From: a virus
UHGV virus genome: UHGV-0256613
DNA: 40,973 nucleotides
Strand: one strand, 5' to 3'
Both the position numbers and the translations under genes were made by a program. The notes beneath the pieces were generated by a model, which was not told the DNA's origin, did not search any database, and was given only the letters and a program-made list of their open reading frames with translations. Positions 20,909-39,325 of the stretch are shown here, one piece after another. Within the stretch, counting starts at the first letter, position 1. The number at the start of each line of letters is the position of its first letter.

Positions 20909-21201
20909 CAGATTACGAAGACGATCAACTGAAAGAAGAAAACGCCCGTAAGCAACGTGACATGGCACAGCGTGAAATTGATGACATTCGCTTTGTCATG
21001 AGCAGTGAACAGGGGCGTCGCGTTGTCTGGTCTGTGCTGGAGAAAGGCCGGGTGTTTTCCGCTATCTCACCGATGGACGCTATGGCAATGGCATTTAATG
21101 AGGGGCAACGCAATCTGGCGCTGGAACTGTTTCAGCGCGTTATGGCGCATTGCCCTGAACAGTATTTGAAGATGGCCAAAGAGGCCAGTGAACAGGAGTG
21201 A
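20905..21201 (+). CDS. hypothetical head-assembly protein
   Basis: 98 aa; ATGA overlap with the portal stop. Confidence 0.55.
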   Translation: MTDYEDDQLKEENARKQRDMAQREIDDIRFVMSSEQGRRVVWSVLEKGRVFSAISPMDAMAMAFNEGQRNLALELFQRVMAHCPEQYLKMAKEASEQE

Positions 21202-21899: not shown

Positions 21900-21913
21900 G
21901 AGAGGAGATAACA

Positions 21914-22900: not shown

Positions 22901-22951
22901 CGCCTGTTATTAACCTGTGGGCCGCAACAGGCCCACTAATGGAGAAAGAAG

Positions 22952-23389
22952 ATGATCACCGACAAACTGTTGATGTTCTCCGAAGCACAGGCGGTAACTG
23001 ATACCGCGGCTTCTACTGACGTAATCGATCTCGGTCCAATTGACGGAAACCGTCGCGATATCGGTGTGGGTTACCCGCTTGAGTTTTGGGTGCTGGTTAA
23101 CGAAGCCGCCACGGCAAGTGGTGAGGCAACTGTAAACATCCAGTTGCAGACGAGTGAGAATAACAGCTCATGGTCCACTATTTATGATAGTGGCGCACTG
23201 GCAAAGGCCACCCTGACAGCAGGTAAGCGAGTTGTTTCTGCAAAGGTGCCTGCCGGTGTTCAGCGATATCTGCGTGTTAACTACTCCGTCGCAACTGGCC
23301 CACTAACGGCTGGCAAATTCACTGCGGGTATCAATCTTGATGTTGATGCCAATACGCCGTATCCGATCCGCTCAAAAGTAACTGGTTAA
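22952..23389 (+). CDS. hypothetical virion protein
   Basis: 145 aa; strong SD; within structural operon. Confidence 0.6.
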   Translation: MITDKLLMFSEAQAVTDTAASTDVIDLGPIDGNRRDIGVGYPLEFWVLVNEAATASGEATVNIQLQTSENNSSWSTIYDSGALAKATLTAGKRVVSAKVPAGVQRYLRVNYSVATGPLTAGKFTAGINLDVDANTPYPIRSKVTG

Positions 23390-23390
23390 G

Positions 23391-23735
23391 GTGATATTGA
23401 TGTCAGGTGAGAAACCAAGATACCGCGTTCTGCGCCTCTCTCATATCCATAACACTCTGTGGCCGGAGGGGGCAGAAATCGAATACGAAGGTGAGCCTGG
23501 TAGCGCACTGGAACCTGTTAACGATGCAGCCAGACAGGCAAAAGCAAAAGTTGCAGGAAAGGTGTCAATGGCAGCAACCAGCACCAAAATCATCAACGAT
23601 GTGTCAGATGATGGTGAACTGGATAAGCTCCGTGAAGAGTACGAATTGCTCTTTAACGAGAAGCCACACCATAACGCCAAAGCCGAAACGCTCCGCGAGA
23701 AGATCGCAGATAAGCGTAAAGAACTGGGCGTGTAA
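23391..23735 (+). CDS. hypothetical virion protein
   Basis: 114 aa; tightly coupled to the preceding gene; followed by a terminator. Confidence 0.6.
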   Translation: MILMSGEKPRYRVLRLSHIHNTLWPEGAEIEYEGEPGSALEPVNDAARQAKAKVAGKVSMAATSTKIINDVSDDGELDKLREEYELLFNEKPHHNAKAETLREKIADKRKELGV

Positions 23736-23752
23736 GCCTCGCGAATCAGACA

Positions 23753-23773
23753 AGGGGCTTCGGCCCCTTTATT
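23753..23773 (+). terminator. rho-independent terminator after the capsid gene block
   Basis: AGGGGC-ttcg-GCCCCT followed by TTATT; position analogous to T7 T-phi. Confidence 0.65.
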
Positions 23774-23791
23774 GCAGGAGTATAGAAACTT

Positions 23792-24397
23792 ATGGCCTCT
23801 GTAGTAGAGATCTGCAATCGTGCGCTGTCCAATATTGGCAACAGCCGCAGTATTAACAGCCTGACGGAAGCCAGCAAGGAAGCGGGGGAATGTTCGCTGC
23901 ACTTTGAGGCCTGCCGTGATGCTGTGCTTTCTGATTTTGACTGGAACTTTGCTACCAAACGCGTGGCGCTTGCAGATACGAGCAATCCACCGCCTGACTG
24001 GGAATATGCGTACCAGTACCCGTCCGATTGTCTGCGCATTACTGAAATTATGCTTCCTGGTGTACGCAATCCAACAGCAGCAATGCGCGTTCAGTACGAA
24101 GTTGGTGCAGACACCAACGGAACAGGAAAGTTGATCTACACAGACCAGCCGCAGGCATGGCTCAAGTATGTATCTCGCGTTTCAGATGTGAACATGTTTG
24201 ATGCCATTTTTATGGAGGCGTTGGCCTGGCGTCTTGCGGCAGCCATTAACATGGCGCTGACTGGGAATGCAGACCTCGGTACGTTTGCCCTCAATATGTA
24301 CAATCGCGTGATTCTTAGTGCTGGCTCGCATAGCCAGAATGAATCACAGGAACCACAGCCACCGGTTGACGAGTTTACCATTGCGAGGTTGTCCTGA
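23792..24397 (+). CDS. tail tubular protein A (T7 gp11-like)
   Basis: 201 aa; size, position and N-terminal pattern (..NRALSNIG..SINSLTE..) resemble T7 gp11. Confidence 0.6.
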   Translation: MASVVEICNRALSNIGNSRSINSLTEASKEAGECSLHFEACRDAVLSDFDWNFATKRVALADTSNPPPDWEYAYQYPSDCLRITEIMLPGVRNPTAAMRVQYEVGADTNGTGKLIYTDQPQAWLKYVSRVSDVNMFDAIFMEALAWRLAAAINMALTGNADLGTFALNMYNRVILSAGSHSQNESQEPQPPVDEFTIARLS

Positions 24398-26868: not shown

Positions 26869-27332
26869 TGGTCGATGTTCAAATTATTCCCGCTACCGAA
26901 GAGCATCTTCAGATGATTTTGCCGGATGTTCGTCAGGCTGATATTGACGAACTGTATGCGGTATCGCTGATGACTACCGAAGATGCGCTGCGTGTTGGTC
27001 TGCGCACTGCGACTATGGCCTGGTCAGGATTTGCGAACGGAGAACTGGTAACCATGTTTGGCGTATCTCCGGCGTCAATGATCGGTGGCAATGGTACGCC
27101 CTGGCTGGTAGGAACCAGCCGTATTGAAAAATATCAGAAGACATTTCTGCGCCACTGCCGCCCTGTATTGCAGCAGATGCTGGCAGTTTATCCGCGCCTG
27201 GAAAACTACGTCGACGAGCGAAACCATGTTGCCAAAGCATGGCTGCACTGGCTTGGATTCAGGCTTGAAGAAGCCGCGCCTTATGGTGCTCTTGGTCTTA
27301 ATTTCCACAGATTTCACATGGAGAGAAAATAA
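26868..27332 (+). CDS. internal virion protein (gp13 position)
   Basis: 154 aa; ATGA-coupled. Confidence 0.55.
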   Translation: MVDVQIIPATEEHLQMILPDVRQADIDELYAVSLMTTEDALRVGLRTATMAWSGFANGELVTMFGVSPASMIGGNGTPWLVGTSRIEKYQKTFLRHCRPVLQQMLAVYPRLENYVDERNHVAKAWLHWLGFRLEEAAPYGALGLNFHRFHMERK

Positions 27333-27895
27333 TGTGCGATCCGGTTATTGCTGGTGGCGCAATGCTCGCCATGAGTGGCATTCAGGCATACACCCAGTAC
27401 CAACAGGGAAGGTATGCCTCGAAGGTTGCAGAAGCGAACGCAGATATAGCCACAGCTCAGGCAAATGATGCAATAAACAGGGGTAACGCTGAAGCTGAGC
27501 AACGGCGCAGAGAGACCCGACAGCGGCTTGGTACACAGGCGGCGACAATGGGGGCTACCGGTGCGGAATTAAGTAGCGGAACAGCTCTTGACGTTTTTGC
27601 GGATAATGCTCAGTTCGGCACTCTTGATGCGTTAACGACAGTGAATAATGCTCAGCGTGAGGCATATGGGTATCAGGTTCAGGGAATGAATGCTCAGGCA
27701 CAGGGGGCTGCTGCTCAGTCGGCTGCTAAATCATCGATGACCAGCACTTTGTTAACGGCACCACTAAAAGCATACGGTGCATATAAGTTGGGTAGCGGAA
27801 GTATCAATCCGATTAGTAAGCAAGGAAACACGCCAATGTTATCTAACTCAGGTTTTATGAATTCTGACTCCCGATTCAAAATAGGAGGTTACTGA
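27332..27895 (+). CDS. internal virion protein (gp14 position)
   Basis: 187 aa; hydrophobic N-terminus, Ala/Gln-rich. Confidence 0.55.
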   Translation: MCDPVIAGGAMLAMSGIQAYTQYQQGRYASKVAEANADIATAQANDAINRGNAEAEQRRRETRQRLGTQAATMGATGAELSSGTALDVFADNAQFGTLDALTTVNNAQREAYGYQVQGMNAQAQGAAAQSAAKSSMTSTLLTAPLKAYGAYKLGSGSINPISKQGNTPMLSNSGFMNSDSRFKIGGY

Positions 27896-30612
27896 TGCCT
27901 GTTGTTCCTACTACATCCGGACGTCAGGTTGAGAGTCGTGGTGTGCAAACCGGTGGTTTTCAGACCTTCGATGTTCCTCAAGCAGGTCAGGTGCTGGCGA
28001 ATGTCGCAGATCAGTATGCGGTGGCATATGGTGAAGCCAGGCAGAAAGCGAATGTTGCATTGTCTCAGGATGCCATCCTTCAGCTTAATCAGCGCAGCAA
28101 TGAACGTCTTTATAACCCTCAAACCGGTTTTTATGCACAACAAGGCAAAAATGCGATTGGTAAGGGGCAAGAGTACATATCTGGATTTGATCAGGATGTG
28201 GAAGAAATAGCTGCTTCATTGACTGATGAAGCAGCAAGAAATATGTTTTTGCAACAAGCCAGAACACAGAAAATTCAGTTCAGTACTGGAGTTCTCAGAC
28301 ATGAGATAGGGCAGACAAATGCCTATGAAGATGAGCAATATCAGGCAACGAGAAAATTATGGATACAAAATGAAGCGGATGCCTGGAATGACCCGCAAAC
28401 TGCCACTTTAGCCAGAAATTCCAGAATGGTAGCCATTGCCAGATATGGAGCAGCCAGGGGATGGTCACAAGAACGCATTCTGGAAGAAATAGAAAGTGAT
28501 GATCGCAGTGCCACAGAAATGCGGGCGAAGAATTATGCCGCTGCTAATCCGGAAGGATGGTTAAATGGTCAGTTTCAGAAAAATGATTCTGGAGGCATGG
28601 ACATGCGTGCCATACGCCTTGTTGAATCAGGTGATCGTCATTTTAATCCTGATGGTAGTATTCTTGAAGGACCGAAAACATCTTCTGGAGAGAGGGCCCA
28701 GGGGAAATACCAGTTAATGCCGGGCACAGGGAAAGAACTGGCGGCCAAACGTGGCGTTGAATACAACCCTACGGACGAACAACAGCATGAAATGCTTGCC
28801 AGTGACTATGTAAATCAACTGTATGGTAAGTACGGCTCCGAAATATTGGCCGGAGCAGCATATAACTGGGGGATGGGTAACGTGGATAAACTGATCGCCA
28901 AAGTCGGTGATCCACGTAAAGGTGAAATATCAGAAGAAGAATTTATCCGAAATCTTCCATCAGAAACACAAGGGTGGCTTTCCCGATATAGAAAAAATAA
29001 AACTGGAATGGATCCGCTGACTATTTATCAAATAGATAACCTTGCTAATAGTCAGATAGAAAAGCAAAGGAAGTTAATATTAGAACAGCTTGAGCCAGCT
29101 ATTAATAACACCATGGCCCAGCTATATAACGGTGAGGTTCCAGATTATATACCGGCTCAGGAGACCATCATCAGGGGGTATGGAAAAAACGCAGATAAAA
29201 TAATCAATCAACTGGATATAGCGATTGATAACGCGAGAATATTCCAGGCAATTCAGTATTTGCCTCCTTCTCAGCAGCAAGAAGAAATGCAGAAAGTGAA
29301 GCCTGAGGTTAACGATCCTCACTATGCGTTAAAACTCGATGCTTACGGAAAATTGTCTGCATTGCTTCAGAGATCAAATGAAGCAATTCAGGCGCAACGG
29401 GATTCACGCAGATTCAATGAGGCGCTGACAATAGGTGAAAAATTAGACCCAAGCAACAAGTCAATGCAGAAAGCTGCTGATTACACAGAAATGGCGCAGA
29501 ACTTTCGTATTAATGATGTCTCCACTCATGATGGGGTTGTTCGGCTTGTGGCTCAGACTGGCATAATGCCTTCGCAGGTCATCACGCAGCTTTCAGCAGT
29601 ATCCCGATCCAGCAATCAGGAAGTGGTTAAAAATGCGGCGGAACTGTTTAGTCGGTTATATGAAACAGACAATGCATCTATTGGAAATATGCCGAAGGAT
29701 ATGCAGGGTTTTTATCTGACTGTTAAGCAACTAACTGATTCTGGCATGTCTGCTGATGTGGCTATCGAGCAGGCGCAGAACCTTACGTACAACCAGACCG
29801 ATGCTCTTAAAGCTCAATTGGCATCAACGCAGAGTTCAAAAGAGTACAAAAATGATCGCAGCAAGGCGATGAATTCTGCTGTCAGCAATATGGCGCAGTG
29901 GTTCCGTTGGGATCCGTCTGCGGATGACCAGACGCCGGAAGCAGCTAGATTCCGTAATGACTATCAGACGATGTATGACATTAACTACCGCGTTGCTGGT
30001 GGTAACGCTGACGTAGCGAAGCAAATGACCAACCAGCAGATAGCCCGCACTTGGAGTATCAGCGAGGTTAACGGAGAAGCGCAGTTTATGAAATATGCAC
30101 CGGAGGCGCTTTATCAATATGGGCCGTCAGGCTGGCAGGCGGCGCAGTGGAAAGCTGAAAAAGAACGGCTGATGTACGGTGAGCGCAAAGAGATTATAAC
30201 AACCAGTCCGACGTTGCTTGGGATCACGTCAGGTAATGCTCCTGTAGTTGAGACAAAAACCCCTGAGAGTCGTATTAATGGAGAATTATTCATAACCCCT
30301 GACGTGTTAACACCCCGTAATGGTGATTACGCCATTATGGTAAGAACTAAGGATGAAAATGGCATCGATCGGGTCCAGCCGTTTTATAACAAACATGGGC
30401 GTCCTATGCGTTGGGAACCATCACTAGAAGATTGGGAACCTTATAAGAAAATGCAGCAGGAACGGGAGCAGTACGAGCAGGAAGAAATTATGCGTGGACA
30501 GGCTATACGAAACTTCAAAGACAAGCATCGCGCTCTGGATGAGCAGTATCAGCGCCTGCATAACGAACGTATGGACAAATTTAAAGATTACTTTTCGTGG
30601 GGATCTAAATAA
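27895..30612 (+). CDS. internal virion/ejection protein with lytic-transglycosylase-like motifs
   Basis: 905 aa; segment VESGDRHF...GKYQLMPGTGKEL...AAYNWGMGNV resembles SLT-domain motifs. Confidence 0.7.
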   Translation: MPVVPTTSGRQVESRGVQTGGFQTFDVPQAGQVLANVADQYAVAYGEARQKANVALSQDAILQLNQRSNERLYNPQTGFYAQQGKNAIGKGQEYISGFDQDVEEIAASLTDEAARNMFLQQARTQKIQFSTGVLRHEIGQTNAYEDEQYQATRKLWIQNEADAWNDPQTATLARNSRMVAIARYGAARGWSQERILEEIESDDRSATEMRAKNYAAANPEGWLNGQFQKNDSGGMDMRAIRLVESGDRHFNPDGSILEGPKTSSGERAQGKYQLMPGTGKELAAKRGVEYNPTDEQQHEMLASDYVNQLYGKYGSEILAGAAYNWGMGNVDKLIAKVGDPRKGEISEEEFIRNLPSETQGWLSRYRKNKTGMDPLTIYQIDNLANSQIEKQRKLILEQLEPAINNTMAQLYNGEVPDYIPAQETIIRGYGKNADKIINQLDIAIDNARIFQAIQYLPPSQQQEEMQKVKPEVNDPHYALKLDAYGKLSALLQRSNEAIQAQRDSRRFNEALTIGEKLDPSNKSMQKAADYTEMAQNFRINDVSTHDGVVRLVAQTGIMPSQVITQLSAVSRSSNQEVVKNAAELFSRLYETDNASIGNMPKDMQGFYLTVKQLTDSGMSADVAIEQAQNLTYNQTDALKAQLASTQSSKEYKNDRSKAMNSAVSNMAQWFRWDPSADDQTPEAARFRNDYQTMYDINYRVAGGNADVAKQMTNQQIARTWSISEVNGEAQFMKYAPEALYQYGPSGWQAAQWKAEKERLMYGERKEIITTSPTLLGITSGNAPVVETKTPESRINGELFITPDVLTPRNGDYAIMVRTKDENGIDRVQPFYNKHGRPMRWEPSLEDWEPYKKMQQEREQYEQEEIMRGQAIRNFKDKHRALDEQYQRLHNERMDKFKDYFSWGSK

Positions 30613-33600
30613 TGCCAGTTTATGCACAAGCTGAAGATCTTAATAACGGACTGATCCCGTCAGGTAATGTTTTGCCGGAACAAACTGGGTTTGATGTTGC
30701 CCTTCCGGAAGGGGCTAATCCTGAGCCATTGCCACCTGAGCCTTCCGTATGGGGGGCTGCAATGCGACAGAACAATATTCTGTCTGGTTTTTTCCGCCCA
30801 GCCAGACAGTTTGAACCGGTCGAGGGTTATAACCCATATGCTGATAAAAATGAGTTGCACGGTTATGAATACTGGGGGGCGAAATTTGCAGATTCCCGAT
30901 CGCCAGAGGAAACGGCGTGGATTAAGCAGCAGATAGATGATGAAAATGAAGACAGACGTTTATTGTCTGATGCTGGCGTAGTTGGAACCCTTGCCAGTAT
31001 TGCTGCGGGAATGGATCCGGTTACTGTTGCGTCAATGTTTATTCCCGGTGCTCAAGGAGGGGCACTGGCGCGTATTGGCTCACAGATTGCGATTGGTGCT
31101 GCCGGTACAGCATTAAGCGAGGTTGTACTGAATAATCAGCAAATAACACGCTCATGGGGTGAAAGTGCCGCTCACGTTGCAGCGGGTGCGATGATGAGCG
31201 GCGTGTTTGCCAGTGCTGGTGTTGCGCTTTCGCCATCCGTCCGGGCTGCAGCCACACGTGAGGTTGCTGATGCTCTTGATAATATGAGCATTACATCAGT
31301 GACTGACAGGGCTGCCGCTTCGCTTTCCGATGGTGGTAGTGTTGGTGCTATGAAAATTGATACAGCGACTCTGGATGATTTAACCCCTGTTTCCGGTGGG
31401 TGGGTTGGAAAGGCTGCATGGAAAGCAGGGAGCTATCTTACTCCTTTGACAAGGTTAATGGAGTCTCCGTCCAAGACGGTGCGAAAAACAACGCTGGAGT
31501 TAGCCGAAAATAATTTCACCCTTAAAGGAAATGAAAGGGGGATTGAAACACCGGTAGCTGTAGAAACCCGTACACGTGGATGGCAGCGTGAAGAAGCTGC
31601 TGTTGTTGTCGGAAATAAACAGGCATACGCAAAGTATAAAGCTGATGGTGGTGACATGAGTTTTGATTCATTTCGTCAGCAGGTTGGGAATGCTATGCGA
31701 AGCGGTGATGTGCATGCTAATCCTGTTGTTCAGGAAACGGCGCAGGCGATGCGAACTGTATTAAATCGGGTGAAAGTTGAAATGCAAAAGCTTGGTTTAT
31801 TGCCGCCAGATGAAGAACTGAAAGCATTAGGCCAGGCAAGCTATTTCCCACGCATATATAAAGTTGGAAAAATAATCAGTGAACGCGATAAATTTCGACG
31901 TATTTTGGTTGACTGGTGGTCGAGAGGAAATAAAACACTGGATCCTGAGGATGCTGAAATTGCAGCGGATATCGTAATTAATAAAATTACTGGTGCTAAG
32001 GTTCCACAGGATTTTGTCAGCGTATTTTCTGTAAAAGCCGCAGGTAGTACGAAAGAAAGAACATTAAATGTTCCTGATAGTCTTATCAGGGATTATCTTG
32101 AAAGTGATGTGAATTACGTGCTGCAACGTCATATCCGTGAAGCGGCAGCAGAAATTGAGTTGACGAGAACATTTGGCAAACGAACTATGACTGAGCGTCT
32201 GCAATTAATTGAGGACGAATATGACAGTCTGTTACGGGAAGTGCCTGAAAAAATAAAGGCGAAATATGACGAAAGTGTGGCAAATCTGAAAGCACGTTAT
32301 GAGAGCAATGGTGAAGTTGTTCCTCAGGGTAAACTCGATTCATTAATGCGAAAGTACGAAAAGGAATTACGGAAAGAACAGTCCAGACTTTCAAAATCAA
32401 GAGCAAATGATCTCAGAGACATAACAGCATTACGCGATCGTCTTGTTGGTACATATGGGATGCCTGATGATCCGTCTTCGTTTTTTGTTCGTGCTGGCGC
32501 TTTTCTGCGGGATGTGAACTTCACGACCAAACTCGGTGGAATGACAGTATCAGCTATTCCAGATCTGGCCAGAGGGGTTATGGTTAATGGTTTCCGTAAC
32601 ACCATGAAAGGCTATGCTTCTCAGATATCCCAATCACCGGCATTTAAGGCCAGCAAAGAAGATATGTTGAAGATGGGGATTGGATTGGAAGCTGTACTAC
32701 ATTCACGTTCTCGTGCAATTGGTGATCTTGTTGACAGTTCTTCCAGGACAACAGCAGTCGAAGCAGGAATGGAGCGAATTACTGATGCCTTCGGCAAGCT
32801 GACACTCATGGATCGATTTAATGACATAAACAAATCCATGAACGGAATGCTCACGTCAGACGGTATTTTGTCCGGTGCGTTTTCTGCACGTCGCATGGCA
32901 AAACTCGGTATCAACGACAATATGGCTGCGCGTATTCGCAGTGAGTTCGAGAAACATGGTGAGGTAATTGATGGATGGCACATTGGTAACTTTGATAAAT
33001 GGGACGATCAGTACGTTGCCGGAGTATTCCAGTCAGCGGTTCTGAAAGACGTTAATAACACTATCATCACCCCCGGTATTGGTGACACACCTTTATGGGC
33101 GAGTACTCCAATGGGGCGAACGATATTTCAGTTTAAATCATTCACAACGGCTTCATACAACCGTGCGCTACTTGGTGGGTTACAGGAAGGAACTGCGCAA
33201 TTTTATTATGGCACTGCATTTCAGATTGCTCTTGGCTCACTGGTCTATGCGCTAAAAGAAGCATCGAAAGGGAAAAATGTTGACTGGTCACCAGAGAAGC
33301 TGGTGCTTGAGGGTATAGATAGATCCGGTATTCTTGGGCCATTGATGGAATATAACAACATGGCTGAAAAGGCTACTGGTGGTGCTGTTGGGCTGGGGGC
33401 TTTATTTGGCACTGGCACACAGTCTAGGTATGCCAGTCGTGGATTCGTAGGATCTCTATTCGGACCGTCATTTGGTCTTGCGGATAGCATCATTGATGTG
33501 ACCGCAGGAGTGTTGAATGGTGATGCCGGTGATCGTATTGCGCATAATGTCCGAACCCTGATACCAGGCAATAACCTGTTCTGGATTGCGCCACTAATAA

Positions 33601-33626
33601 ACCAGGTGGATCCGGTGATGCGGTGA
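30612..33626 (+). CDS. internal virion/ejection protein (large core protein)
   Basis: 1004 aa; ATGA-coupled; last gene of the core block. Confidence 0.7.
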   Translation: MPVYAQAEDLNNGLIPSGNVLPEQTGFDVALPEGANPEPLPPEPSVWGAAMRQNNILSGFFRPARQFEPVEGYNPYADKNELHGYEYWGAKFADSRSPEETAWIKQQIDDENEDRRLLSDAGVVGTLASIAAGMDPVTVASMFIPGAQGGALARIGSQIAIGAAGTALSEVVLNNQQITRSWGESAAHVAAGAMMSGVFASAGVALSPSVRAAATREVADALDNMSITSVTDRAAASLSDGGSVGAMKIDTATLDDLTPVSGGWVGKAAWKAGSYLTPLTRLMESPSKTVRKTTLELAENNFTLKGNERGIETPVAVETRTRGWQREEAAVVVGNKQAYAKYKADGGDMSFDSFRQQVGNAMRSGDVHANPVVQETAQAMRTVLNRVKVEMQKLGLLPPDEELKALGQASYFPRIYKVGKIISERDKFRRILVDWWSRGNKTLDPEDAEIAADIVINKITGAKVPQDFVSVFSVKAAGSTKERTLNVPDSLIRDYLESDVNYVLQRHIREAAAEIELTRTFGKRTMTERLQLIEDEYDSLLREVPEKIKAKYDESVANLKARYESNGEVVPQGKLDSLMRKYEKELRKEQSRLSKSRANDLRDITALRDRLVGTYGMPDDPSSFFVRAGAFLRDVNFTTKLGGMTVSAIPDLARGVMVNGFRNTMKGYASQISQSPAFKASKEDMLKMGIGLEAVLHSRSRAIGDLVDSSSRTTAVEAGMERITDAFGKLTLMDRFNDINKSMNGMLTSDGILSGAFSARRMAKLGINDNMAARIRSEFEKHGEVIDGWHIGNFDKWDDQYVAGVFQSAVLKDVNNTIITPGIGDTPLWASTPMGRTIFQFKSFTTASYNRALLGGLQEGTAQFYYGTAFQIALGSLVYALKEASKGKNVDWSPEKLVLEGIDRSGILGPLMEYNNMAEKATGGAVGLGALFGTGTQSRYASRGFVGSLFGPSFGLADSIIDVTAGVLNGDAGDRIAHNVRTLIPGNNLFWIAPLINQVDPVMR

Positions 33627-33637
33627 GTTAAACGCCT

Positions 33638-34249
33638 TTAGCATGATTCAGGGGAAACCCCAATATTAAATATGAGTGACTCCCCTGAATCAGCATAATA
33701 ATGTAATATTATTGACTTACGTTGTTTTCTTGCTTCGTAGAATAAACGCTCCTGCGGCGATAATTTGTGAAAACTGCCGGATGCACAATATATGTTTTTT
33801 AACTTTTCGCTGGTTGCTTTTATTGTATCTTCTGAGATGTATTTTAGGTATTTATCCGTATAGATGTTGCTACTATAAGAAATTAATGTTTTGCTGTTGT
33901 TGTGATGTGTTGTATTTTTATCGTTGAAGTCTGTATTTTTATTTACTGTCATTAGGTTTTTAATGATTACATGTAATACAATAGTCTCCCCATCATCAAT
34001 TCCATATTTGATGTCATAGTCAGTATATTTATTTGTTATACCGCTTCCTGATAGCGGCACTATGTACTCTGAGAAAAATGAGTTTGCCGCGTGACCATCA
34101 AGAGCAATAGCATTTTTTTTGTGGTAAAAATAAAACAATATTGAGAGAGTCAAAATAATAGCGACGCCTAATGCAACCTTTAATATAGATATGGTTTTCA
34201 AAATATCGCTCCTTGTTGTAACATACATCAGTAATGTGGCGTTTTTCAA
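33638..34249 (-). CDS. membrane-anchored protein (moron), unknown function; probable TTG start at 34201
   Basis: AT-rich; AAGGAG SD 6 nt before TTG at 34201 giving MKTISILKVALGVAIILTLSILFYFYHKK...; Asn/Tyr/Lys-rich body; 3' end overlaps a 12-bp-arm inverted repeat. Confidence 0.6.
   Translation of the reverse strand: MKNATLLMYVTTRSDILKTISILKVALGVAIILTLSILFYFYHKKNAIALDGHAANSFFSEYIVPLSGSGITNKYTDYDIKYGIDDGETIVLHVIIKNLMTVNKNTDFNDKNTTHHNNSKTLISYSSNIYTDKYLKYISEDTIKATSEKLKNIYCASGSFHKLSPQERLFYEARKQRKSIILHYYADSGESLIFNIGVSPESC
33644..33692. repeat. 12-bp perfect inverted repeat (TGATTCAGGGGA ... TCCCCTGAATCA) with 25-nt spacer
   Basis: Lies between convergent genes (core protein stop 33626; moron stop 33638). 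Confidence 0.6.
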
Positions 34250-34291
34250 TTGTATTAAAGACGTGTAATATGTACACGCCTTTTGTTCTTC

Positions 34292-34723
34292 CTATTCAGG
34301 TATTTCAATTCCAAAACCATCTGCATCCCATGAGTTTTCACAGATGATGTAACCTAGTTCATTGAGCTTATTAAATGTTTTTTCAAAGATGATCTGGTAA
34401 TCATTATCTGCAAGTGATTCCAGTTCAAGGTCATTAAGGTTTATATAAAAACTTGTATGTCCAAGTGTTATTTTCTTATTAATTTCATTAAAGGTTCTTT
34501 TGAAAATAATATTTGATATTTCATGCCGTGCATTGTTTGCAATAATTTTTGCTTCATAAGCAGAAATTACGTCATCTTCATGAATATCTTTCAGAAAGCT
34601 GGTGTCAAGACGTTGTACTATTTCAGCGTTCATTGATCGCTTATTGGCTTTTGCAGAAATTTCTATTTTTTCTTTTACTTCAACGGGAAGTCTGATCCTT
34701 AGTTGTGGATCTTCTCTGCTCAT
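34292..34723 (-). CDS. Mnt-like ribbon-helix-helix repressor with C-terminal extension
   Basis: N-terminus DPQLRIRLPVEVKEKIEISAKANKRSMNAEIVQRLDTSF matches the Arc/Mnt RHH pattern; divergent from the arc-ant operon as in P22 immI. ORF track extends to 34753 (TTG). Confidence 0.65.
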   Translation of the reverse strand: MSREDPQLRIRLPVEVKEKIEISAKANKRSMNAEIVQRLDTSFLKDIHEDDVISAYEAKIIANNARHEISNIIFKRTFNEINKKITLGHTSFYINLNDLELESLADNDYQIIFEKTFNKLNELGYIICENSWDADGFGIEIPE

Positions 34724-34814
34724 GTTCTTCACCAAATATTGAGTTACTTGCAATGATTGAAGTATGCCTCACCGTGTGCTTGACATCAATGACGCACGGT
34801 GTGACAATTGTTTT

Positions 34815-34843: not shown

Positions 34844-35011
34844 ATGCAAAAAGCAAAAGAGATGTGTCAACGACGAGTTCGTTTTCCGGACGATGTGAAG
34901 TTAGCTATTGAAAGAAATGGCGAAAAAGAATGCCGAAAGTTCAATACAGAGATTATCTATCAGCTGAGGAAAGTGTATGGACTCACTGGTGAGAAGAATA
35001 GCGTGGCATAA
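34844..35011 (+). CDS. arc: Arc-like ribbon-helix-helix repressor
   Basis: 55 aa from ATG with AAGGAG SD; RVRFPDDVKLAIERNGEKECRKFNTEIIYQL parallels Arc. ORF track starts at TTG 34808. Confidence 0.7.
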   Translation: MQKAKEMCQRRVRFPDDVKLAIERNGEKECRKFNTEIIYQLRKVYGLTGEKNSVA

Positions 35012-35083
35012 AACAGCGAAGCCCAACGGTGGCCAGACCGTCAGGGCTTCAGTATCGTAAAACTACGTATAGGAATTAACGAC

Positions 35084-36022
35084 ATGACGAGTATAGCAAC
35101 AGCGGTATCTACTATCAACGTGCCATTCCACGGCGCAGAGCTTTATGTTGTCAATCACAACGGTGAACCGTATACCCCAATGAAACCTATCGTTGAGGGA
35201 ATGGGGCTAGACTGGAAATCTCAACATAAGAAGATTTCTCAACGCTTCTCGAAGGGTATGGTGGAAATCACCATACCTTCTGCCGGTGGGGTGCAAGCCA
35301 TGATTTGTATGGCTTTACGAAAATTGGCAGCTTGGTTGAACAGCATCAGTCCAAACAAAGTACGCCCTGAAATCCGCGACAAGGTAATCCAGTATCAGGA
35401 AGAGTGTGACGATGTGCTCTACGATTACTGGACTAAAGGCCATGTAGTTAACCCACGCAAAGCTAAAAAGGCGTTGCCGGGTAAAATCACCACTGAACAG
35501 CAGGAAGCCATTAAACAACTCGTCATGAGTCGCGGTCAGTCTCTGCCAAAAGAAAAACAGGCTAAGGCGATGATCACCATGTGGTCGTCACTGAAATCTC
35601 ATTTTGGCTGTTCGTACAAAGAAATTGATGAAGATCAATTCGCCGAAGCGTTGTCTCTTGTTGCTCGGGTTCCGCTTGAAGGGGAGTATCTCCCTGCTGG
35701 ATCTGCATCAGAGAATGATGAAGTGGCAGTCAAGATGTTAGATGCGCTTCGTGAGGCAATTAAAACACAGACAAAATGTTATGGTTATCCGCTGAAGCCC
35801 GGCTACCGCAGTTTGATTCACTCGCCGTCTGGTGTTCTCGGCCTGACGGAGAACTCACTGCTGATGAATCTGCTGAACCAGTTACAGGAAGACGGGCACG
35901 ACGTATCGGGTGCGGCGGCGGAACTGACCACCATGTTCTGCTACATCGTCGGTGTGAGTAAATGCCTGCGTGATATCCAGACCCACGCGGAGTACATCAA
36001 CGACAAGGCAGGGTTCTTCTGA
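35084..36022 (+). CDS. ant: antirepressor Ant (AntA-type N-terminal domain, shared C-terminal domain)
   Basis: 312 aa; N-terminus ...MKPIVEGMGLDWKSQHKKIS...; C-terminal ~85 aa nearly identical to the C-terminus of the 37274-37966 protein. Confidence 0.8.
   Translation: MTSIATAVSTINVPFHGAELYVVNHNGEPYTPMKPIVEGMGLDWKSQHKKISQRFSKGMVEITIPSAGGVQAMICMALRKLAAWLNSISPNKVRPEIRDKVIQYQEECDDVLYDYWTKGHVVNPRKAKKALPGKITTEQQEAIKQLVMSRGQSLPKEKQAKAMITMWSSLKSHFGCSYKEIDEDQFAEALSLVARVPLEGEYLPAGSASENDEVAVKMLDALREAIKTQTKCYGYPLKPGYRSLIHSPSGVLGLTENSLLMNLLNQLQEDGHDVSGAAAELTTMFCYIVGVSKCLRDIQTHAEYINDKAGFF
35780..36022. repeat. left arm of ~245-bp inverted repeat (antirepressor C-terminal coding region)
   Basis: Reverse complement is near-identical by eye to 37274-37520 (a handful of mismatches). 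Confidence 0.8.
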
Positions 36023-36073
36023 CAGAACGGCGGCACAGGGATGTGCAAAACGGAACTATCGTGACATGTCACA

Positions 36074-36097
36074 GGCCGCTTTCGCGGCCTTGTTTTT
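36074..36097 (+). terminator. rho-independent terminator after ant (preceded by GTGACATGTCAC palindrome at 36061-36072)
   Basis: GGCCGC-tttc-GCGGCC followed by TTGTTTTT; identical hairpin recurs at 39327-39350. Confidence 0.6.
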
Positions 36098-36257
36098 AAC
36101 GAATGCCACCGCCACCCGGGCGGGAATCCGCAGAACGCCCACCGCAGCGGGAGCCGTCAGCAGCAGTGTCGCTGTCGTGCTGACAACGACCGGCAAAGGC
36201 CTGAGTTGAAGCTACCAGAGACAACAAAACGAACAGTGCAGCAAATGCTTTTTTCAT
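36096..36257 (-). CDS. possible small secreted peptide
   Basis: MKKAFAALFVLLSLVASTQAFAGRCQHDSDTAADGSRC...; clear signal-peptide-like N-terminus but weak SD and GC-rich; uncertain. Confidence 0.3.
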   Translation of the reverse strand: MKKAFAALFVLLSLVASTQAFAGRCQHDSDTAADGSRCGGRSADSRPGGGGIR

Positions 36258-36328
36258 TGTGAAATTTCCATCTATAAGCCACCTCAATGTGGCGTCAATG
36301 AGTGTAGCACTGACTTTTGTTTCGTCCA

Positions 36329-36350
36329 CAAAAAAGCCCGCAGCGCGGGC
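36329..36350 (-). terminator. rho-independent terminator (minus strand)
   Basis: On minus strand GCCCGC-gcu-GCGGGC followed by TTTTTT, directly after the stop of the 36351-36899 gene. Confidence 0.55.
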
Positions 36351-36899
36351 TTACTTTTCTTCAGGTTTGTTGTCTTCAGATTTCTTCTTGATGCTTGGTT
36401 TTTGTCTAAGAACGAAAATACCAGCCACTGCAACAACTGTACCGATCACTGTGCCAGCTAGAACTTCATGACCTGTTAAACCTAATAATGTTGCACAAGC
36501 TACTGTAAAAATAGTTGCACTCAGGCCAAACCACTGCCCACGTTTATCTCTATTAATAGCCCCGTCAAGTGCCTTTTCCTCCATTTTCTGGCGGTGAGCA
36601 AACTCCTTCTCCGTCAGCTGGAAGATGCGTTCGGGGGCATCAGGTAAAATATCCTGATACCCGCGAAGCAGATAGGGGGGAGGAAGCGGACCCTGAAACG
36701 CATGGTGAGCGACAACTATCTCCTGAATTTCAGGGCGATCAAGAACTCTTGTGAAGGCATCTGGGTGTTGAATGATCTCGTTACTTAGCCCTTCCTCAAC
36801 TTCCTCGAACTCAGTTTCTTCGTTATCACTTGGTTGCCCAATAGATTTTTGCATATTTGTCGAAGGACATTCCTTTAGCTTCTGGTTTTCCTCTTGCAT
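36351..36899 (-). CDS. membrane protein (acidic N-terminus, two C-terminal TM helices)
   Basis: 182 aa; C-terminal WFGLSATIFTVACATLLGLTGHEVLAGTVIGTVVAVAGIFVL; start uncertain (internal Met at residue 16). Confidence 0.6.
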   Translation of the reverse strand: MQEENQKLKECPSTNMQKSIGQPSDNEETEFEEVEEGLSNEIIQHPDAFTRVLDRPEIQEIVVAHHAFQGPLPPPYLLRGYQDILPDAPERIFQLTEKEFAHRQKMEEKALDGAINRDKRGQWFGLSATIFTVACATLLGLTGHEVLAGTVIGTVVAVAGIFVLRQKPSIKKKSEDNKPEEK

Positions 36900-37152
36900 T
36901 TGAGTTTTTCCCTGTCACTATTGCCCATTTTCCGCCAGCAGGCGCTGCAATTTTTTTTCCGTTCTTTACTATATATTCAGCATAAACACGATTTTCTGAC
37001 CGTCTGAGATCGTCTCCGACCATATTCATGTCTCTTGATATAACTTTGACGACAGAGTCTCGGTTTAAAGCCTTGGCATAGTTGGAGCCAGGAACGATAC
37101 CCAAAGGGGTGCCAGACTCTATAGCCAGCTCCTTGACATATCTTCTGCTCAT
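36826..37152 (-). CDS. hypothetical protein
   Basis: 108 aa from ATG at 37152 with GAGGT SD; overlaps the next gene's 5' end. ORF track extends to 37167. Confidence 0.45.
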   Translation of the reverse strand: MSRRYVKELAIESGTPLGIVPGSNYAKALNRDSVVKVISRDMNMVGDDLRRSENRVYAEYIVKNGKKIAAPAGGKWAIVTGKNSNARGKPEAKGMSFDKYAKIYWATK

Positions 37153-37273
37153 ATGAACCTCAACCAATCGACTTTACCAATCGGGTAATTTTAAACATGA
37201 GTATAATGCTTTTAACTGCAACGAGTGTAAACAATTATTGATAATTGTAGGCACATCCCTGTGCCGCCGCCCG

Positions 37274-37520
37274 TCAGAAGAACCCTGCTTTGTCGTTGAT
37301 GTACTCCGCGTGCGTCTGGATATCACGCAGGCATTTGCTCACACCGACGATGTAGCAGAACATGGTGGTCAACTCCGCCGCCGCGCCCGATACGTCGTGC
37401 CCGTCTTCCTGTAACTGGTTTAGCAGATTCATCAGCAGTGAGTTCTCCGTCAGGCCGAGAACACCAGACGGCGAATGAATCAGGCTGCGGTAGCCGGGCT
37501 TCAGTGGGGCGCTGTAGGTT
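37274..37520. repeat. right arm of ~245-bp inverted repeat (antirepressor C-terminal coding region)
   Basis: Near-identical to reverse complement of 35780-36022. Confidence 0.8.
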
Positions 37521-37966
37521 TTGTTCTCTACCTTCATTGCCTGCATCACTGCTGATGCTGTGGCGTTGGCTACCTGGTCGGCAACCATCTTTATGCGTTC
37601 TTCCTGCGGGAGCGAGTTTTTAATGTAACTTCCGGTGCGGCGGATCTGAGGAAGAACCTCACCTGTAACCCATTCAAGAAATCTGAATGCTCTCGTTCCC
37701 TCAGTCATTGCCTCTTTGCAACGCAGAATAAGGATGTAGAGACCTGATTCTGAAACGATGGATAGTTCTTGTATTCCACCAGGGGTCTGTATTGAATACA
37801 GCCCCTTTTTGTTCCAGCCTTTTTTATCAAGTTTTCTCGCTTGTGTAACATCAATATTCAAAGCATTGCACACATCTTTGGTGACAAACCAAGGTTCTCC
37901 GTCAATCATGAACATACGGATCTGGCAGGATGACTCAAAGGAAAAGATGGAAGGTTTGGTATTCAT
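37274..37966 (-). CDS. antirepressor paralog (Bro-N-type N-terminal domain, shared Ant C-terminal domain)
   Basis: N-terminus MNTKPSIFSFESSCQIRMFMIDGEPWFVTKDVCNALNI... (Bro-N-like); C-terminal ~85 aa shared with Ant at 35084-36022. ORF track extends to 38011. Confidence 0.75.
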   Translation of the reverse strand: MNTKPSIFSFESSCQIRMFMIDGEPWFVTKDVCNALNIDVTQARKLDKKGWNKKGLYSIQTPGGIQELSIVSESGLYILILRCKEAMTEGTRAFRFLEWVTGEVLPQIRRTGSYIKNSLPQEERIKMVADQVANATASAVMQAMKVENKTYSAPLKPGYRSLIHSPSGVLGLTENSLLMNLLNQLQEDGHDVSGAAAELTTMFCYIVGVSKCLRDIQTHAEYINDKAGFF

Positions 37967-38015
37967 AGCGATCACCTTTGTAGTTAGGTTAATCACCACC
38001 GCTGAGACCAATCAG

Positions 38016-38373: not shown

Positions 38374-38829
38374 TTGGGGGTGCCCGTGAACACGAAGAGA
38401 GCTACAGTAATGCAGCATTTGAGGAAATCAGAAAAAAATAAAGACCATGAAATATTGAGTAAGGCCATTGTTCGGGCTTCCAATAATACTGTTATACCTC
38501 ATGCTGAAGAGTCTGGACAGAAATTTCTTATTCGGTATTTCACTGAAAATAGTGCAGTTGAGGAGATTTTAAAACATCAGGGAGGGGAATTTAAATGTGG
38601 AAAACTGGCAGATTATGTTCGTCGTGAAACGTCTGAACAAGAAGTATATTATGCTGATATTAATCATAAGTCAGGTGTGAAAATTGTAATAGGCTATTAC
38701 ACAACTCCCAAAAATGTTATGCATGAGGTCCCAAAGATGTCCGTCGAGAAATCTCATGCAATCTCGCGCAGGATGTTTGCACGCACTGCCGAAGATATGG
38801 CTCAGGAGCTCTACGACGATGCTGAATAA
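38374..38829 (+). CDS. hypothetical protein, upstream partner of the YafO-like gene (start uncertain: TTG 38374 or ATG 38410)
   Basis: 139-151 aa; AT-rich; stop overlaps the downstream start by 11 nt (ATGCTGAATAA). Confidence 0.6.
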   Translation: MGVPVNTKRATVMQHLRKSEKNKDHEILSKAIVRASNNTVIPHAEESGQKFLIRYFTENSAVEEILKHQGGEFKCGKLADYVRRETSEQEVYYADINHKSGVKIVIGYYTTPKNVMHEVPKMSVEKSHAISRRMFARTAEDMAQELYDDAE

Positions 38830-39325
38830 ATTCCAGGGGTTGGTTCACCCTGGAATTTTTGGGAAGGACCCTGAGCTAATACCTATCAAAAACGCGTTCA
38901 TAGATCACTGGCGCTACGGTCATCATAAGGATTTCGGAAAGGACACTCTGTTTCGGGATCCACCGAAAGAAATGCTGGAATATCACATACGCCACGTTCA
39001 CGTAAACATCGGAAACTATACTGACAAGTTTGGTGAGAGCGGTACGGAACAATGCTGGAAAAACTGGGCGTCTGGGAAGAAAGACAAGACCACTAACAAG
39101 CATAAAAAGATCCCAACCAGTGACGTGTATGTGATTTATCTGGTCACATCTGAACGCCATGCCTTCCTTCTGGATTATTGGGATGAACCAGCACATAAGA
39201 CAGTAGAAATTGACGAGCAGAAGCAAAAATTAGTTGTCGAGTGTGACAGAATTTTGCGGCTGAAAAAGTTAGAATCCATGCCGCGCGATGCTAGTTTGTG
39301 GGACCCAGAATTTTACGACTGTTAA
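38819..39325 (+). CDS. YafO-family-like toxin-domain protein (putative)
   Basis: 168 aa; motifs GIFGKDPEL / DFGKDTLF, HIRHVHVNIGN and DVYVIYLVTSERHAFLLDYWDEPAHK parallel recalled YafO motifs (IFGRDALYDD, HIHLAN, HLVYCQGAFDEQAWLLIAILKPEPHK); AGGAG SD. Confidence 0.55.
   Translation: MLNKFQGLVHPGIFGKDPELIPIKNAFIDHWRYGHHKDFGKDTLFRDPPKEMLEYHIRHVHVNIGNYTDKFGESGTEQCWKNWASGKKDKTTNKHKKIPTSDVYVIYLVTSERHAFLLDYWDEPAHKTVEIDEQKQKLVVECDRILRLKKLESMPRDASLWDPEFYDC

What the first reader, a model, noticed from the sequence alone, without database searches (positions are those of the whole stretch)
33638..34249. AT-rich membrane-anchored protein adjacent to the immI-like region, overlapping a 12-bp-arm inverted repeat
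The gene is convergent with the last core gene and strongly AT-rich. The best start is a TTG with a perfect AAGGAG SD, giving an N-terminal TM anchor followed by an Asn/Tyr/Lys-rich domain. Its 3' end reads through a perfect inverted repeat (33644-33692) that probably acts as a bidirectional terminator. In P22-like phages this position often carries superinfection-exclusion or surface-modification genes.
Basis: inference. Interest (0 to 1): 0.45.

Follow-up and report, generated by a model that had tools for sequence, protein, structure and literature searches.

The report
Exported prophage protein beside ejection genes
This is a real, intact prophage gene for a small protein that faces the space between the two bacterial membranes. 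It always sits tail-to-tail with the last DNA-ejection gene of its phage, so it is a good but untested candidate for a new type of protein that blocks entry of rival phages.

Summary
A 187-aa ORF (33638-34201, minus strand; TTG start, AAGGAG 7 nt upstream) has 33% GC against 48% for the window. It lies 11 nt tail-to-tail with the last internal-virion gene, and its last 18 codons run through a perfect 12-bp inverted repeat.

The prophage is about 99% identical to Escherichia phage TL-2011b in this region. Its virion genes are epsilon15/T7-type, not P22-like. Only the Arc/Ant immunity module resembles P22, and this ORF occupies the sieA slot of that layout.

It is not a SieA homologue. It belongs to a small uncharacterised family (phrog_8033 plus 28-50% identical relatives in Providencia, Proteus and viral contigs). 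Every context read places the homologue convergent with the gp16-like gene.

The product has one N-terminal signal-anchor; some relatives have cleavable signal peptides. Its alpha/beta domain has two invariant cysteines. Its best solved-structure matches are PA3611 and the AspS secretin pilotin.

The gene is intact in all sampled relatives, with dN/dS 0.30 against 0.07-0.11 for its neighbours.

My best guess (confidence about 0.4) is lysogen-expressed superinfection exclusion acting on the periplasmic DNA-delivery conduit. The hairpin is real and partly conserved, but it is not a canonical terminator.

The parts
33638..34201 (-). ORF187 coding sequence (187 aa plus TAA stop). It equals TL-2011b gp39 and is a full-length member of phrog_8033.
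   Evidence: PGAP annotates an identical-length CDS in 8 E. coli genomes. dN/dS is 0.30.
34199..34214 (-). Translation start: TTG at 34201-34199, with AAGGAG at 34214-34209 and a 7-nt spacer.
   Evidence: Read directly. Homologues start at the equivalent residue.
34124..34192 (-). N-terminal hydrophobic segment (residues about 4-26). It is a signal-anchor or a long signal peptide.
   Evidence: Kyte-Doolittle profile. The AF2 model has a helix at residues 2-28. Relatives carry canonical cleavable signal peptides ending in AFA|S.
33641..34111 (-). Predicted periplasmic alpha/beta domain (residues 31-187) with an AspS/PA3611-like fold.
33869..33946 (-). Asn/Lys/Thr-rich insertion (residues 86-111). 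It is a variable, low-confidence loop, absent from the Providencia/Proteus clade.
   Evidence: Alignment A2. pLDDT is below 50. Close relatives carry a 7-residue indel here.
33785..33787 (-). Codon of invariant Cys139, at the end of helix alpha2.
   Evidence: Invariant in A2. The position matches the conserved AspS/PA3611 disulfide described in PMC3542185.
33641..33643 (-). Codon of invariant C-terminal Cys187.
   Evidence: Invariant in A2.
33641..33694 (.). Hairpin built on perfect 12-bp arms (33644-33655 and 33681-33692). It lies inside the last 18 codons of ORF187, at the convergent gene junction.
   Evidence: It is conserved in the IMG/VR clade, with two compensatory pairs. No U-tract is present.
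30612..33626 (+). The convergent neighbour: a T7 gp16-like internal virion (ejection) protein of 1004 aa.
   Evidence: phrog_342 E 1.7e-209. A homologous gene abuts every family member examined.
34292..34723 (-). Upstream co-oriented Arc-family ('mnt-like') gene of 143 aa, equally AT-rich (GC 0.323).
   Evidence: PF03869 E 1.2e-14. PGAP annotation. GC content.
34257..34283 (.). An 11-bp inverted repeat between the mnt-like stop and the ORF187 start. On the plus strand it is followed by a T-run.
34844..36022 (+). Arc-like and Ant genes, the divergent half of the immI-like module.
   Evidence: P22_AR_N E 2.5e-45. Weak Arc-like PHROG matches, best E 2.2e-5. Compared with the P22 map.

Best explanation
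ORF187 is a functional accessory ('moron') gene of a TL-2011b-like temperate podovirus.

Shown here:
- It encodes a 187-aa envelope protein with a single N-terminal signal-anchor.
- The remaining roughly 155 residues form an alpha/beta domain that two independent structure searches place next to the periplasmic proteins PA3611 and AspS (the type II secretin pilotin).
- Two invariant cysteines sit where those proteins carry their conserved disulfide.
- The gene belongs to a small, fast-evolving family. In every context read, the family member lies tail-to-tail, 2-34 nt away, with the last T7-gp16-like ejection-protein gene of temperate podophages of Enterobacterales.

Inferred:
- The gene is transcribed against the late operon, like the adjacent mnt-like repressor gene, and so is probably expressed from the prophage.
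- The domain sits on the periplasmic face of the inner membrane, or is free in the periplasm in relatives with a cleaved signal peptide.
- There it binds a periplasm-exposed segment of an incoming phage's gp14/15/16-type DNA-delivery conduit, or a host partner of that conduit, and blocks DNA entry. This would make it a superinfection-exclusion protein that works like P22 SieA or T4 Spackle without being related to either.

The 12-bp inverted repeat in its last codons forms a stable stem-loop in both convergent transcripts. It most likely defines or protects their 3' ends, because only 11 nt of intergenic DNA are available. It is not a canonical Rho-independent terminator.
For: Real gene: it is intact and of identical length in 10 of 10 full-length copies compared. 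dN/dS is 0.30, with mean dS of 0.048. 187-aa alleles occur on more than 1000 contigs of E. coli, E. albertii and E. marmotae. 36 of 5426 complete E. coli genomes carry it, always on the chromosome.

Family and synteny: an exhaustive HMMER search finds only 17 representatives. Contexts L004-L013 and L023-L028 all place the homologue convergent with a 937-1133-aa gp16-like gene, preceded where the locus extends that far by gp14-like and gp15-like genes. The run-on C-termini of P0004, P0013 and P0014 read like the antisense of a gp16-like 3' end.

Export: there is one hydrophobic N-terminal segment. Relatives carry canonical AXA signal peptides. Two cysteines are invariant.

Exclusion-like features:
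- The gene layout is the same as P22's 16 | sieA ... mnt | arc ant.
- SieA is proposed, from escape mutations in genes 16 and 20, to act on the gp20/gp16 conduit (PMC10883804).
- The family evolves faster than its neighbours. It is 28-32% identical where the gp16-like protein is 42-50% identical, and 92% where gp16-like is 99%. Its dN/dS is 3-4 times that of the flanking genes.
- One natural variant (P0022, L009) is fused to a diverged copy of the gp16-like N-terminal segment plus a transmembrane helix. This is a weak gene-fusion hint of an interaction.

Hairpin: z-scores are -5.5 and -5.8. 90.8% of cells pair against at most 60.8% when the partner is slid, and two G-C to A-U double changes separate the clades. 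Relatives with 29-34-nt gaps mostly carry a separate intergenic hairpin instead.
Against: - No functional data exist for any family member. All are annotated as hypothetical proteins, and no paper mentions them.
- Positional conservation could simply reflect vertical inheritance at a module boundary.
- Expression from the prophage is not shown. Promoter-like hits upstream are no more frequent than in shuffled sequence.
- I could not inspect model coordinates, so the disulfide is inferred from cysteine positions only.
- The nearest relatives EC.W1-9 and Klebsiella phage ST512-KPC3phi13.3 have a homologous gp16-like gene but no family member after it.
- dN/dS of 0.30 indicates purifying selection. 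It shows no positive selection.
- The hairpin arms encode the conserved motifs DSG and SPES, so part of their conservation is protein-driven. The two covarying pairs amount to one event each.
Confidence: 0.4

Rival explanations
1. It is a host-directed lysogenic-conversion factor. Under this reading the pilotin-like periplasmic domain binds a host envelope protein, such as the S-domain of a secretin (T2SS GspD) or another periplasmic or outer-membrane component. It would change host physiology or virulence rather than block phages.
For: The best structural matches are PA3611 and the secretin pilotins AspS and EpsS. PA3611 has been suggested to bind secretins in the periplasm (PMC3542185). Many carrier strains are pathogenic E. 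coli.
Against: The window protein has no lipobox, which is read directly from the sequence. It has only about 3-4 residues between the membrane helix and the folded domain, so it cannot pilot anything to the outer membrane. The strict linkage to the gp16-like gene across hosts with different secretin repertoires (E. coli, Providencia, Proteus) is not explained by a host target. No sequence similarity to AspS family models was found.
Confidence: 0.12
2. It is an accessory protein for the phage's own lytic cycle. It could be a periplasmic factor made after infection that helps or times envelope events such as lysis or protection of the infected cell. In that case it would not be a prophage-expressed gene.
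For: Expression timing is unknown. P22 sieA itself is also upregulated after induction (PMC10883804). The product is a type II membrane protein with a periplasmic domain, as i-spanins are.
Against: It is antisense to the late operon and co-oriented with the mnt-like repressor gene. The lysis cassette, including an Rz-like spanin, lies elsewhere in TL-2011b (gp50-53). The predicted domain is a globular alpha/beta fold, not a coiled coil. Two related phage genomes in the phage collection lack the gene, so it is dispensable for the virion and the lytic programme.
Confidence: 0.1
3. The inverted repeat has no RNA function. Under this reading it is a by-product of codon choice in two conserved peptide motifs (YYaDSGe... 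and ...SPESC), whose codons happen to be near reverse complements of each other.
For: Both arms lie in motifs that are conserved, though not identical in sequence, across the family. The arms never vary within the E. coli clade, so that clade gives no evidence either way. Neither strand has a U-tract, and the terminator scan is silent here. The Providencia and Proteus homologues keep comparable motifs (SG...SP.SC) without the repeat.
Against: Perfect 12-bp complementarity needs particular synonymous codons at several positions. Two stem pairs change on both sides through synonymous third-position changes in the 45-50% identical clade. Clades with longer intergenic gaps mostly carry a separate hairpin at the same junction. 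This suggests that a hairpin at the junction is the feature under selection.
Confidence: 0.3
4. It is a divergent SieA, or an O-antigen or surface-modification enzyme, as the genome position in P22-like phages might suggest.
For: Only the genome position supports this.
Against: The hhalign probability against P22 SieA is 0.3%. The protein has one hydrophobic segment where SieA has three or four, and it lacks the FxRYPxEAxxFNK motif. It matches no acyltransferase, Gtr or other enzyme family. TL-2011b encodes a separate O-acetyltransferase.
Confidence: 0.02

Closest known systems
P22 SieA (superinfection exclusion A)
   Same: It occupies the same slot in the same gene layout. It lies immediately downstream of, and convergent with, the last ejection-protein gene, downstream of mnt, next to arc-ant. 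It is small, membrane-associated and presumably prophage-expressed. The proposed mode of action, interference with the ejected-protein DNA conduit, is what PMC10883804 proposes for SieA.
   Different: There is no sequence or profile similarity. It has one N-terminal anchor and a folded periplasmic domain, whereas SieA is a 3-4-TM integral protein with a cytoplasmic conserved motif. The neighbouring ejection proteins are T7 gp14/15/16-type rather than P22 gp7/20/16. Function is untested.
AspS/EpsS secretin pilotins and P. aeruginosa PA3611 (PDB 4ftf, 6i2v, 3npd)
   Different: Sequence similarity is undetectable. The protein is phage-encoded. It is anchored to the inner membrane by a signal-anchor or is secreted, and is not an outer-membrane lipoprotein. 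It carries an extra 26-residue N/K-rich loop, and the C-terminal helix is reduced to a few residues. No secretin partner is known.
T4 Spackle (Sp) and other periplasm-acting exclusion proteins (comparison from my own knowledge, not tested here)
   Same: It is a small exported phage protein that would act in the periplasm on a component of the incoming phage's envelope-penetration machinery.
   Different: No homology was tested or is expected. Spackle is made by a lytic phage and targets the gp5 lysozyme. Here the gene is in a prophage and the target is unknown.
phrog_8033 / TL-2011b gp39 (hypothetical protein)
   Same: The window protein is a full-length member (E 1.5e-126, residues 1-187 of 187) and is 97% identical to gp39.
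   Different: Nothing differs. The family has no assigned function, so this placement gives a name but no mechanism.

Membership tests
phrog_8033 (uncharacterised phage protein family) | Full-length profile match | tested here: met
   E 1.5e-126, 420.6 bits. Profile positions 1-187 of 187 match residues 17-203 of the long ORF.
P22 SieA family (types A/B/C) | Sequence homology, including the FxRYPxEAxxFNK motif | tested here: not met
   hhalign of the 14-sequence family profile against P22 SieA gives probability 0.3%. The motif, as given in PMC10883804, is absent from the sequence.
P22 SieA family (types A/B/C) | Integral inner-membrane protein with 3-4 transmembrane segments | tested here: not met
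   Only one hydrophobic segment is present, at residues about 3-27. The rest is predicted to be a globular alpha/beta domain.
P22 SieA family (types A/B/C) | Gene located between the last ejection-protein gene and the tailspike gene, antisense to the late genes | tested here: met
   Window layout compared with the P22 annotation.
P22 SieA family (types A/B/C) | Blocks DNA injection by superinfecting phage | not testable with these tools
   This needs plating, K+ efflux or DNA-entry assays.
AspS/PA3611 pilotin-like fold | Alpha/beta fold with alpha1, beta1-3, alpha2, alpha3, beta4-5 and a C-terminal element | tested here: met
AspS/PA3611 pilotin-like fold | Conserved disulfide tying alpha2 to the C-terminal segment | tested here: inconclusive
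   Cys139 (end of alpha2) and Cys187 (C-terminus) are invariant in 14 sequences. Their positions agree with Cys74-Cys111 of AspS.
AspS/PA3611 pilotin-like fold | Detectable sequence membership (Pfam or PDB profile match) | tested here: not met
   No such hit appears in Pfam scans of all 14 members or in the profile search of PDB sequences.
AspS/PA3611 pilotin-like fold | Outer-membrane lipoprotein (lipobox) that binds a secretin S-domain | tested here: not met
   The window protein has no cysteine in or after the signal segment. Relatives have signal peptidase I-type AXA sites. Secretin binding is not testable here.
Rho-independent (intrinsic) terminator | Stable G+C-rich stem-loop | tested here: met
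   -22.9 and -27.5 kcal/mol, z -5.5 and -5.8.
Rho-independent (intrinsic) terminator | Short loop and a U-tract directly 3' of the stem | tested here: not met
   The terminator scan makes no call at 33641-33694 on either strand. The tails read GCAUAAUA (plus strand) and UGCUAAAG (minus strand).
i-spanin (Rz-like) | Type II membrane protein with a coiled-coil periplasmic domain, encoded in the lysis cassette with an o-spanin | tested here: not met
   The predicted domain is a globular alpha/beta fold. In TL-2011b the Rz-like spanin is gp53, next to the holin and endolysin genes.

The most novel reading that the evidence does not exclude
ORF187 and its relatives are a previously unrecognised class of periplasmic superinfection-exclusion proteins. 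They would use a secretin-pilotin-like peptide-binding fold to capture or cap a segment of the T7/epsilon15-type ejectosome (gp14/15/16-like proteins) of incoming phages. They would be genetically locked next to the ejection-protein genes, just as the unrelated SieA is in P22. If so, placing an exclusion gene against the last ejection gene is a convergent design rule of temperate podoviruses.
Probability: 0.3. Interest if true: 0.65.

Novelty: new variant of a known kind. Interest (0 to 1): 0.45.

Why it matters
According to the 2024 SieA study, SieA was the first inner-membrane exclusion protein described for a short-tailed phage, and its mechanism is still unclear. None is known to me for temperate phages with T7-type ejection proteins.

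A second, unrelated protein family in the identical genomic slot, tied to a different ejection machinery, would have two uses. It would give a tractable soluble domain of about 155 residues for probing how ejected proteins cross the periplasm. It would also suggest a simple positional rule for finding exclusion genes in prophages.

The gene is present in under 1% of complete E. coli genomes, including pathogenic lineages. It could therefore affect phage typing or phage therapy in those strains.

If the gene turns out to do something else, the finding reduces to a well-described hypothetical accessory gene.

Tried and rejected
- Sequence family searches gave nothing credible. I scanned Pfam, NCBIfam and PADLOC with the protein, and scanned Pfam again with all 14 family members. 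The best hits were PHL at E 0.08-0.095, ThsB TIR-like at E 0.006 (15 bits) and Imm42 in one member. None agrees with the structure search, so I rejected them as chance.
- The profile search of PDB sequences hit iota-carbonic anhydrase (whole-sequence E 9.3e-5). That value comes from three weak repeat matches (individual E 2.8 to 2400). They align to a segment the model predicts as helix followed by strands, so I rejected the hit.
- A single-sequence AF2 model was too poor to use (pLDDT 58). I replaced it with the alignment-based model.
- The Foldseek search of viral structures (BFVD) found no match at E <= 0.001. The afdb50 library was unavailable.
- The search for related loci with the full alignment failed because no conserved stretch was long enough. 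Single-protein scans with P0013 and P0012 found nothing in viral contigs. The scan with P0006 succeeded.
- A literature search for the protein accessions returned no paper. Papers mentioning TL-2011b do not discuss this gene.
- Promoter scan: the two minus-strand candidates upstream of the ORF match 9 of 12 positions, and such hits are no more frequent than in shuffled sequence. I claim no promoter.
- I considered and rejected a SieA homologue, an i-spanin, a lipoprotein of the Cor/Llp type (no lipobox), an O-antigen-modifying enzyme and a spurious ORF.
- The cluster representative P0003 is frameshifted. I first read this as widespread disruption, but the cluster listing shows that most members read are intact 187-aa proteins.
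Full report
**What is there.** The window is a prophage. In this region it is about 99% identical to Escherichia phage TL-2011b and 100% identical to the E. coli F11 chromosome.

The minus-strand ORF 33638-34249 exists. The TTG that carries the perfect AAGGAG (34214-34209, 7-nt spacer) is at 34201, and no Shine-Dalgarno sequence precedes 34249. Four lines of evidence support the resulting 187-aa product:
- the TL-2011b gp39 annotation;
- PGAP annotation in eight complete E. coli genomes;
- the phrog_8033 profile, which covers exactly residues 17-203 of the long ORF;
- the N-termini of all homologues.

The gene has 32.8% GC against 48% for the window. The co-oriented Arc-family gene upstream has 32.3% GC. 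The stop codon lies 11 nt from the stop of the 1004-aa plus-strand gene.

**The inverted repeat.** The arms are perfect 12-mers, 33644-33655 and 33681-33692. They lie inside the last 18 codons and encode ...A-D-S-G... and ...S-P-E-S....
- Only one other perfect inverted repeat of at least 11 bp exists in the 41-kb window. First-order Markov simulations give a mean of 0.5 such hits per sequence.
- Both RNA strands fold far better than shuffled sequence: -22.9 and -27.5 kcal/mol, z -5.5 and -5.8.
- Neither strand has a U-tract, and the terminator scan makes no call there.
- The arms never vary within the E. coli clade.
- The hairpin persists in the 45-50% identical clade from viral contigs. 90.8% of cells pair, against at most 60.8% when the partner column is slid. 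Two pairs changed from G-C to A-U through synonymous changes, and three pairs are broken.
- Relatives with 29-34-nt gaps mostly carry a separate intergenic hairpin at the junction.

I conclude that a stem-loop at this convergent junction is probably selected, as a 3'-end or stability element. It is not a canonical intrinsic terminator. Part of its conservation is due to the protein motifs it encodes.

**Which phage.** The virion genes are of a different type:
- a T7-type portal (PF12236);
- an epsilon15-type capsid (PF20911);
- a T7_gp14-family protein;
- a 905-aa SLT-domain protein;
- the 1004-aa gene, which matches phrog_342, 'internal virion protein'.

A CI-like S24 repressor is also present. 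The layout around the ORF nevertheless reproduces P22's exactly. P22 reads 16(+) | sieA(-) orf59a(-) mnt(-) | arc(+) ant(+). The window reads gp16-like(+) | ORF187(-) mnt-like(-) | arc-like(+) ant(+).

**Is the gene real?** Yes.
- 36 of 5426 complete E. coli genomes carry it, always on the chromosome.
- It is intact and of identical length in 10 of 10 full-length copies compared with the window. An 11th copy (L012) is intact with a 7-codon deletion in the variable loop.
- Pairwise dN/dS is 0.30 (mean dS 0.048). The gp16-like gene gives 0.11 and the mnt-like gene 0.07.
- Intact 187-aa alleles occur on more than 1000 contigs of E. coli, E. albertii and E. marmotae.
- A few frameshifted alleles exist (P0002-P0004). 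One of them looks like a 1-nt loss in the C-run of the repeat arm.

**The family.**
- The word-indexed search found only near-identical proteins.
- The exhaustive HMMER search of 1.84 billion representatives found 17.
- A profile search added Providencia and Proteus proteins.
- A scan of viral contigs added a further clade.
- Identity to the window protein is 28-50%.

Sixteen alignment columns are invariant, including two cysteines, C139 and C187. The window protein, P0001, P0006 and the viral-contig clade carry an Asn/Lys/Thr-rich insertion (residues 86-111). The other clades lack it.

N-termini differ between clades. The window protein has a 21-residue hydrophobic stretch followed by HKK, which is most simply read as an uncleaved signal-anchor. 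The viral-contig clade and P0007 have textbook signal peptides ending in AFA|S or TFA|A. Export signals plus an invariant cysteine pair argue that the domain is periplasmic.

**Synteny.** In every context read, the homologue lies tail-to-tail, 2-34 nt away, with a 937-1133-aa gp16-like gene. These contexts are the Providencia, Proteus and metagenomic contigs L004-L013 and the viral contigs L023-L028 that extend past the gene. Where the locus extends that far, gp14-like and gp15-like genes precede it. The gene on the other side varies.

The run-on C-termini of P0004, P0013 and P0014 resemble the antisense translation of a gp16-like 3' end. This implies the same arrangement for those proteins.

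The family diverges faster than its neighbour. It is 28-32% identical where the gp16-like protein is 42-50% identical, and 92% where gp16-like is 99.2%. Two related phages have a homologous gp16-like gene but no family member after it: EC.W1-9 and Klebsiella phage ST512-KPC3phi13.3. The gene is therefore accessory.

**Structure.** With the 14-sequence alignment, AlphaFold2 gives pLDDT 78.8 and pTM 0.67. The core is above 90, and only the insertion falls below 50.
- Foldseek independently ranks the same two first (probabilities 0.94 and 0.77) and also lists EpsS (6i2v).
- The published AspS description matches the model's element order. It gives alpha1, beta1-3, alpha2, alpha3, beta4-5, alpha4, with a conserved disulfide from alpha2 to the C-terminal helix, shared with PA3611 (PMC3542185).
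- That description also matches the placement of C139 and C187.

No sequence-level link is detectable, and no coordinates were available to measure the Cys-Cys distance. I therefore call this an AspS/PA3611-like fold, not membership of that family.

**Comparison with SieA.** P22 SieA is a 162-164-aa inner-membrane protein with three predicted transmembrane segments and a cytoplasmic motif, FxRYPxEAxxFNK. Escape mutations map to ejection-protein genes 16 and 20. All SieA types sit between genes 16 and 9 (PMC10883804). The ORF187 family shares the position but nothing else (hhalign probability 0.3%).

**Mechanism.**
- Shown: the gene is a selected, exported, pilotin-fold protein gene locked next to the last ejection-protein gene.
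- Inferred: it is expressed from the prophage. Its orientation matches the mnt-like gene, and it has the AT-rich composition typical of accessory genes.
- Inferred: it binds a periplasm-exposed part of an incoming phage's gp14/15/16-type conduit, or a host partner of it, at the inner-membrane surface. This would block DNA entry, which is superinfection exclusion.

Three observations fit this model: the sieA-equivalent slot, the faster evolution, and the fold of a protein that grips a peptide segment of a membrane channel. A fourth is a single natural variant (P0022, L009). In it the domain is fused to a diverged copy (37% identical) of residues about 44-106 of the gp16-like protein, followed by a transmembrane helix.

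I put this model at about 0.4. The rivals are a host-directed envelope factor (0.12) and a lytic-cycle accessory role (0.10). The remaining probability covers functions I have not thought of. A SieA homologue, a spanin, a surface-modifying enzyme and a spurious ORF are rejected by test.

**Novelty and score.** The gene is already in databases as a hypothetical protein and as a PHROG of unknown function. Four things are new here:
- the wider family;
- its strict linkage to the gp16-like gene;
- the export and disulfide signature;
- the pilotin-like fold.

If the exclusion model is right, this is a new variant of a known kind: prophage exclusion at the DNA-entry step, built from an unrelated protein and tied to a different ejection machinery. 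Without any experiment it remains a well-characterised candidate. Interest: 0.45.

Noticed in passing
window 34257-34283: An 11-bp inverted repeat lies directly after the mnt-like stop codon and upstream of the ORF187 start. On the plus strand a T-run follows it, and the scan calls it terminator-like. It would stop transcripts that run antisense through ORF187 before they reach the immunity genes. P22 has an annotated terminator and a sieA promoter at the equivalent place.
   Followed up: partly
window 38828-38858: This is the only other perfect 11-bp inverted repeat in the window (AAATTCCAGGG / CCCTGGAATTT, 9-nt loop). TTTTGGG follows it, and it starts at the stop codon of the ORF ending at 38829. 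It looks like a canonical intrinsic terminator.
   Followed up: partly
L009 2958-3752 (protein P0022): One family member is extended by about 100 residues. The extension contains a diverged copy (37% identical to the resident gene, 50% to the window's) of residues about 44-111 of the gp16-like protein, followed by a C-terminal transmembrane helix. It may be a decoy or an interaction hint. It was seen on a single contig.
   Followed up: partly
window 34292-34753; L001 8893-9234: The Arc-family 'mnt-like' gene (143 aa by PGAP) is as AT-rich as ORF187 and has an extra C-terminal domain (phrog_1388). In TL-2011b it is annotated as only 342 nt, and extending it to the window's 432-nt length does not give an open frame. 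It may be truncated in that phage.
   Followed up: no
window 36023-38011 and loci L015-L022: The cargo between ant and the Bro-N gene differs among otherwise near-identical E. coli prophages. Variants include DUF2335, a YafO-family toxin, a 210-aa hypothetical protein, and an inversion in L022. A conserved 53-aa 'transmembrane anchored protein' gene is always present. This is a second variable accessory-gene region.
   Followed up: no
window 19229-33626: The virion module combines an epsilon15-type major capsid protein (PF20911) with a T7-type portal, a T7_gp14 protein, an SLT-domain 905-aa protein and a gp16-like 1004-aa protein. The C-terminal 299 residues of the gp16-like protein have their nearest phage relatives (34-44% identity) in EC.W1-9, a Klebsiella prophage and many Vibrio phages. 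No Salmonella-named phage such as epsilon15 was among the hit organisms.
   Followed up: partly
proteins P0002, P0003, P0004 (close relatives of window 33638-34201): Rare frameshifted alleles exist. P0002 and P0004 end ...GVSLNH..., which looks like loss of one base from the C-run (CCCC) that forms part of the hairpin arm. That homopolymer run may be a mutational hotspot.
   Followed up: no
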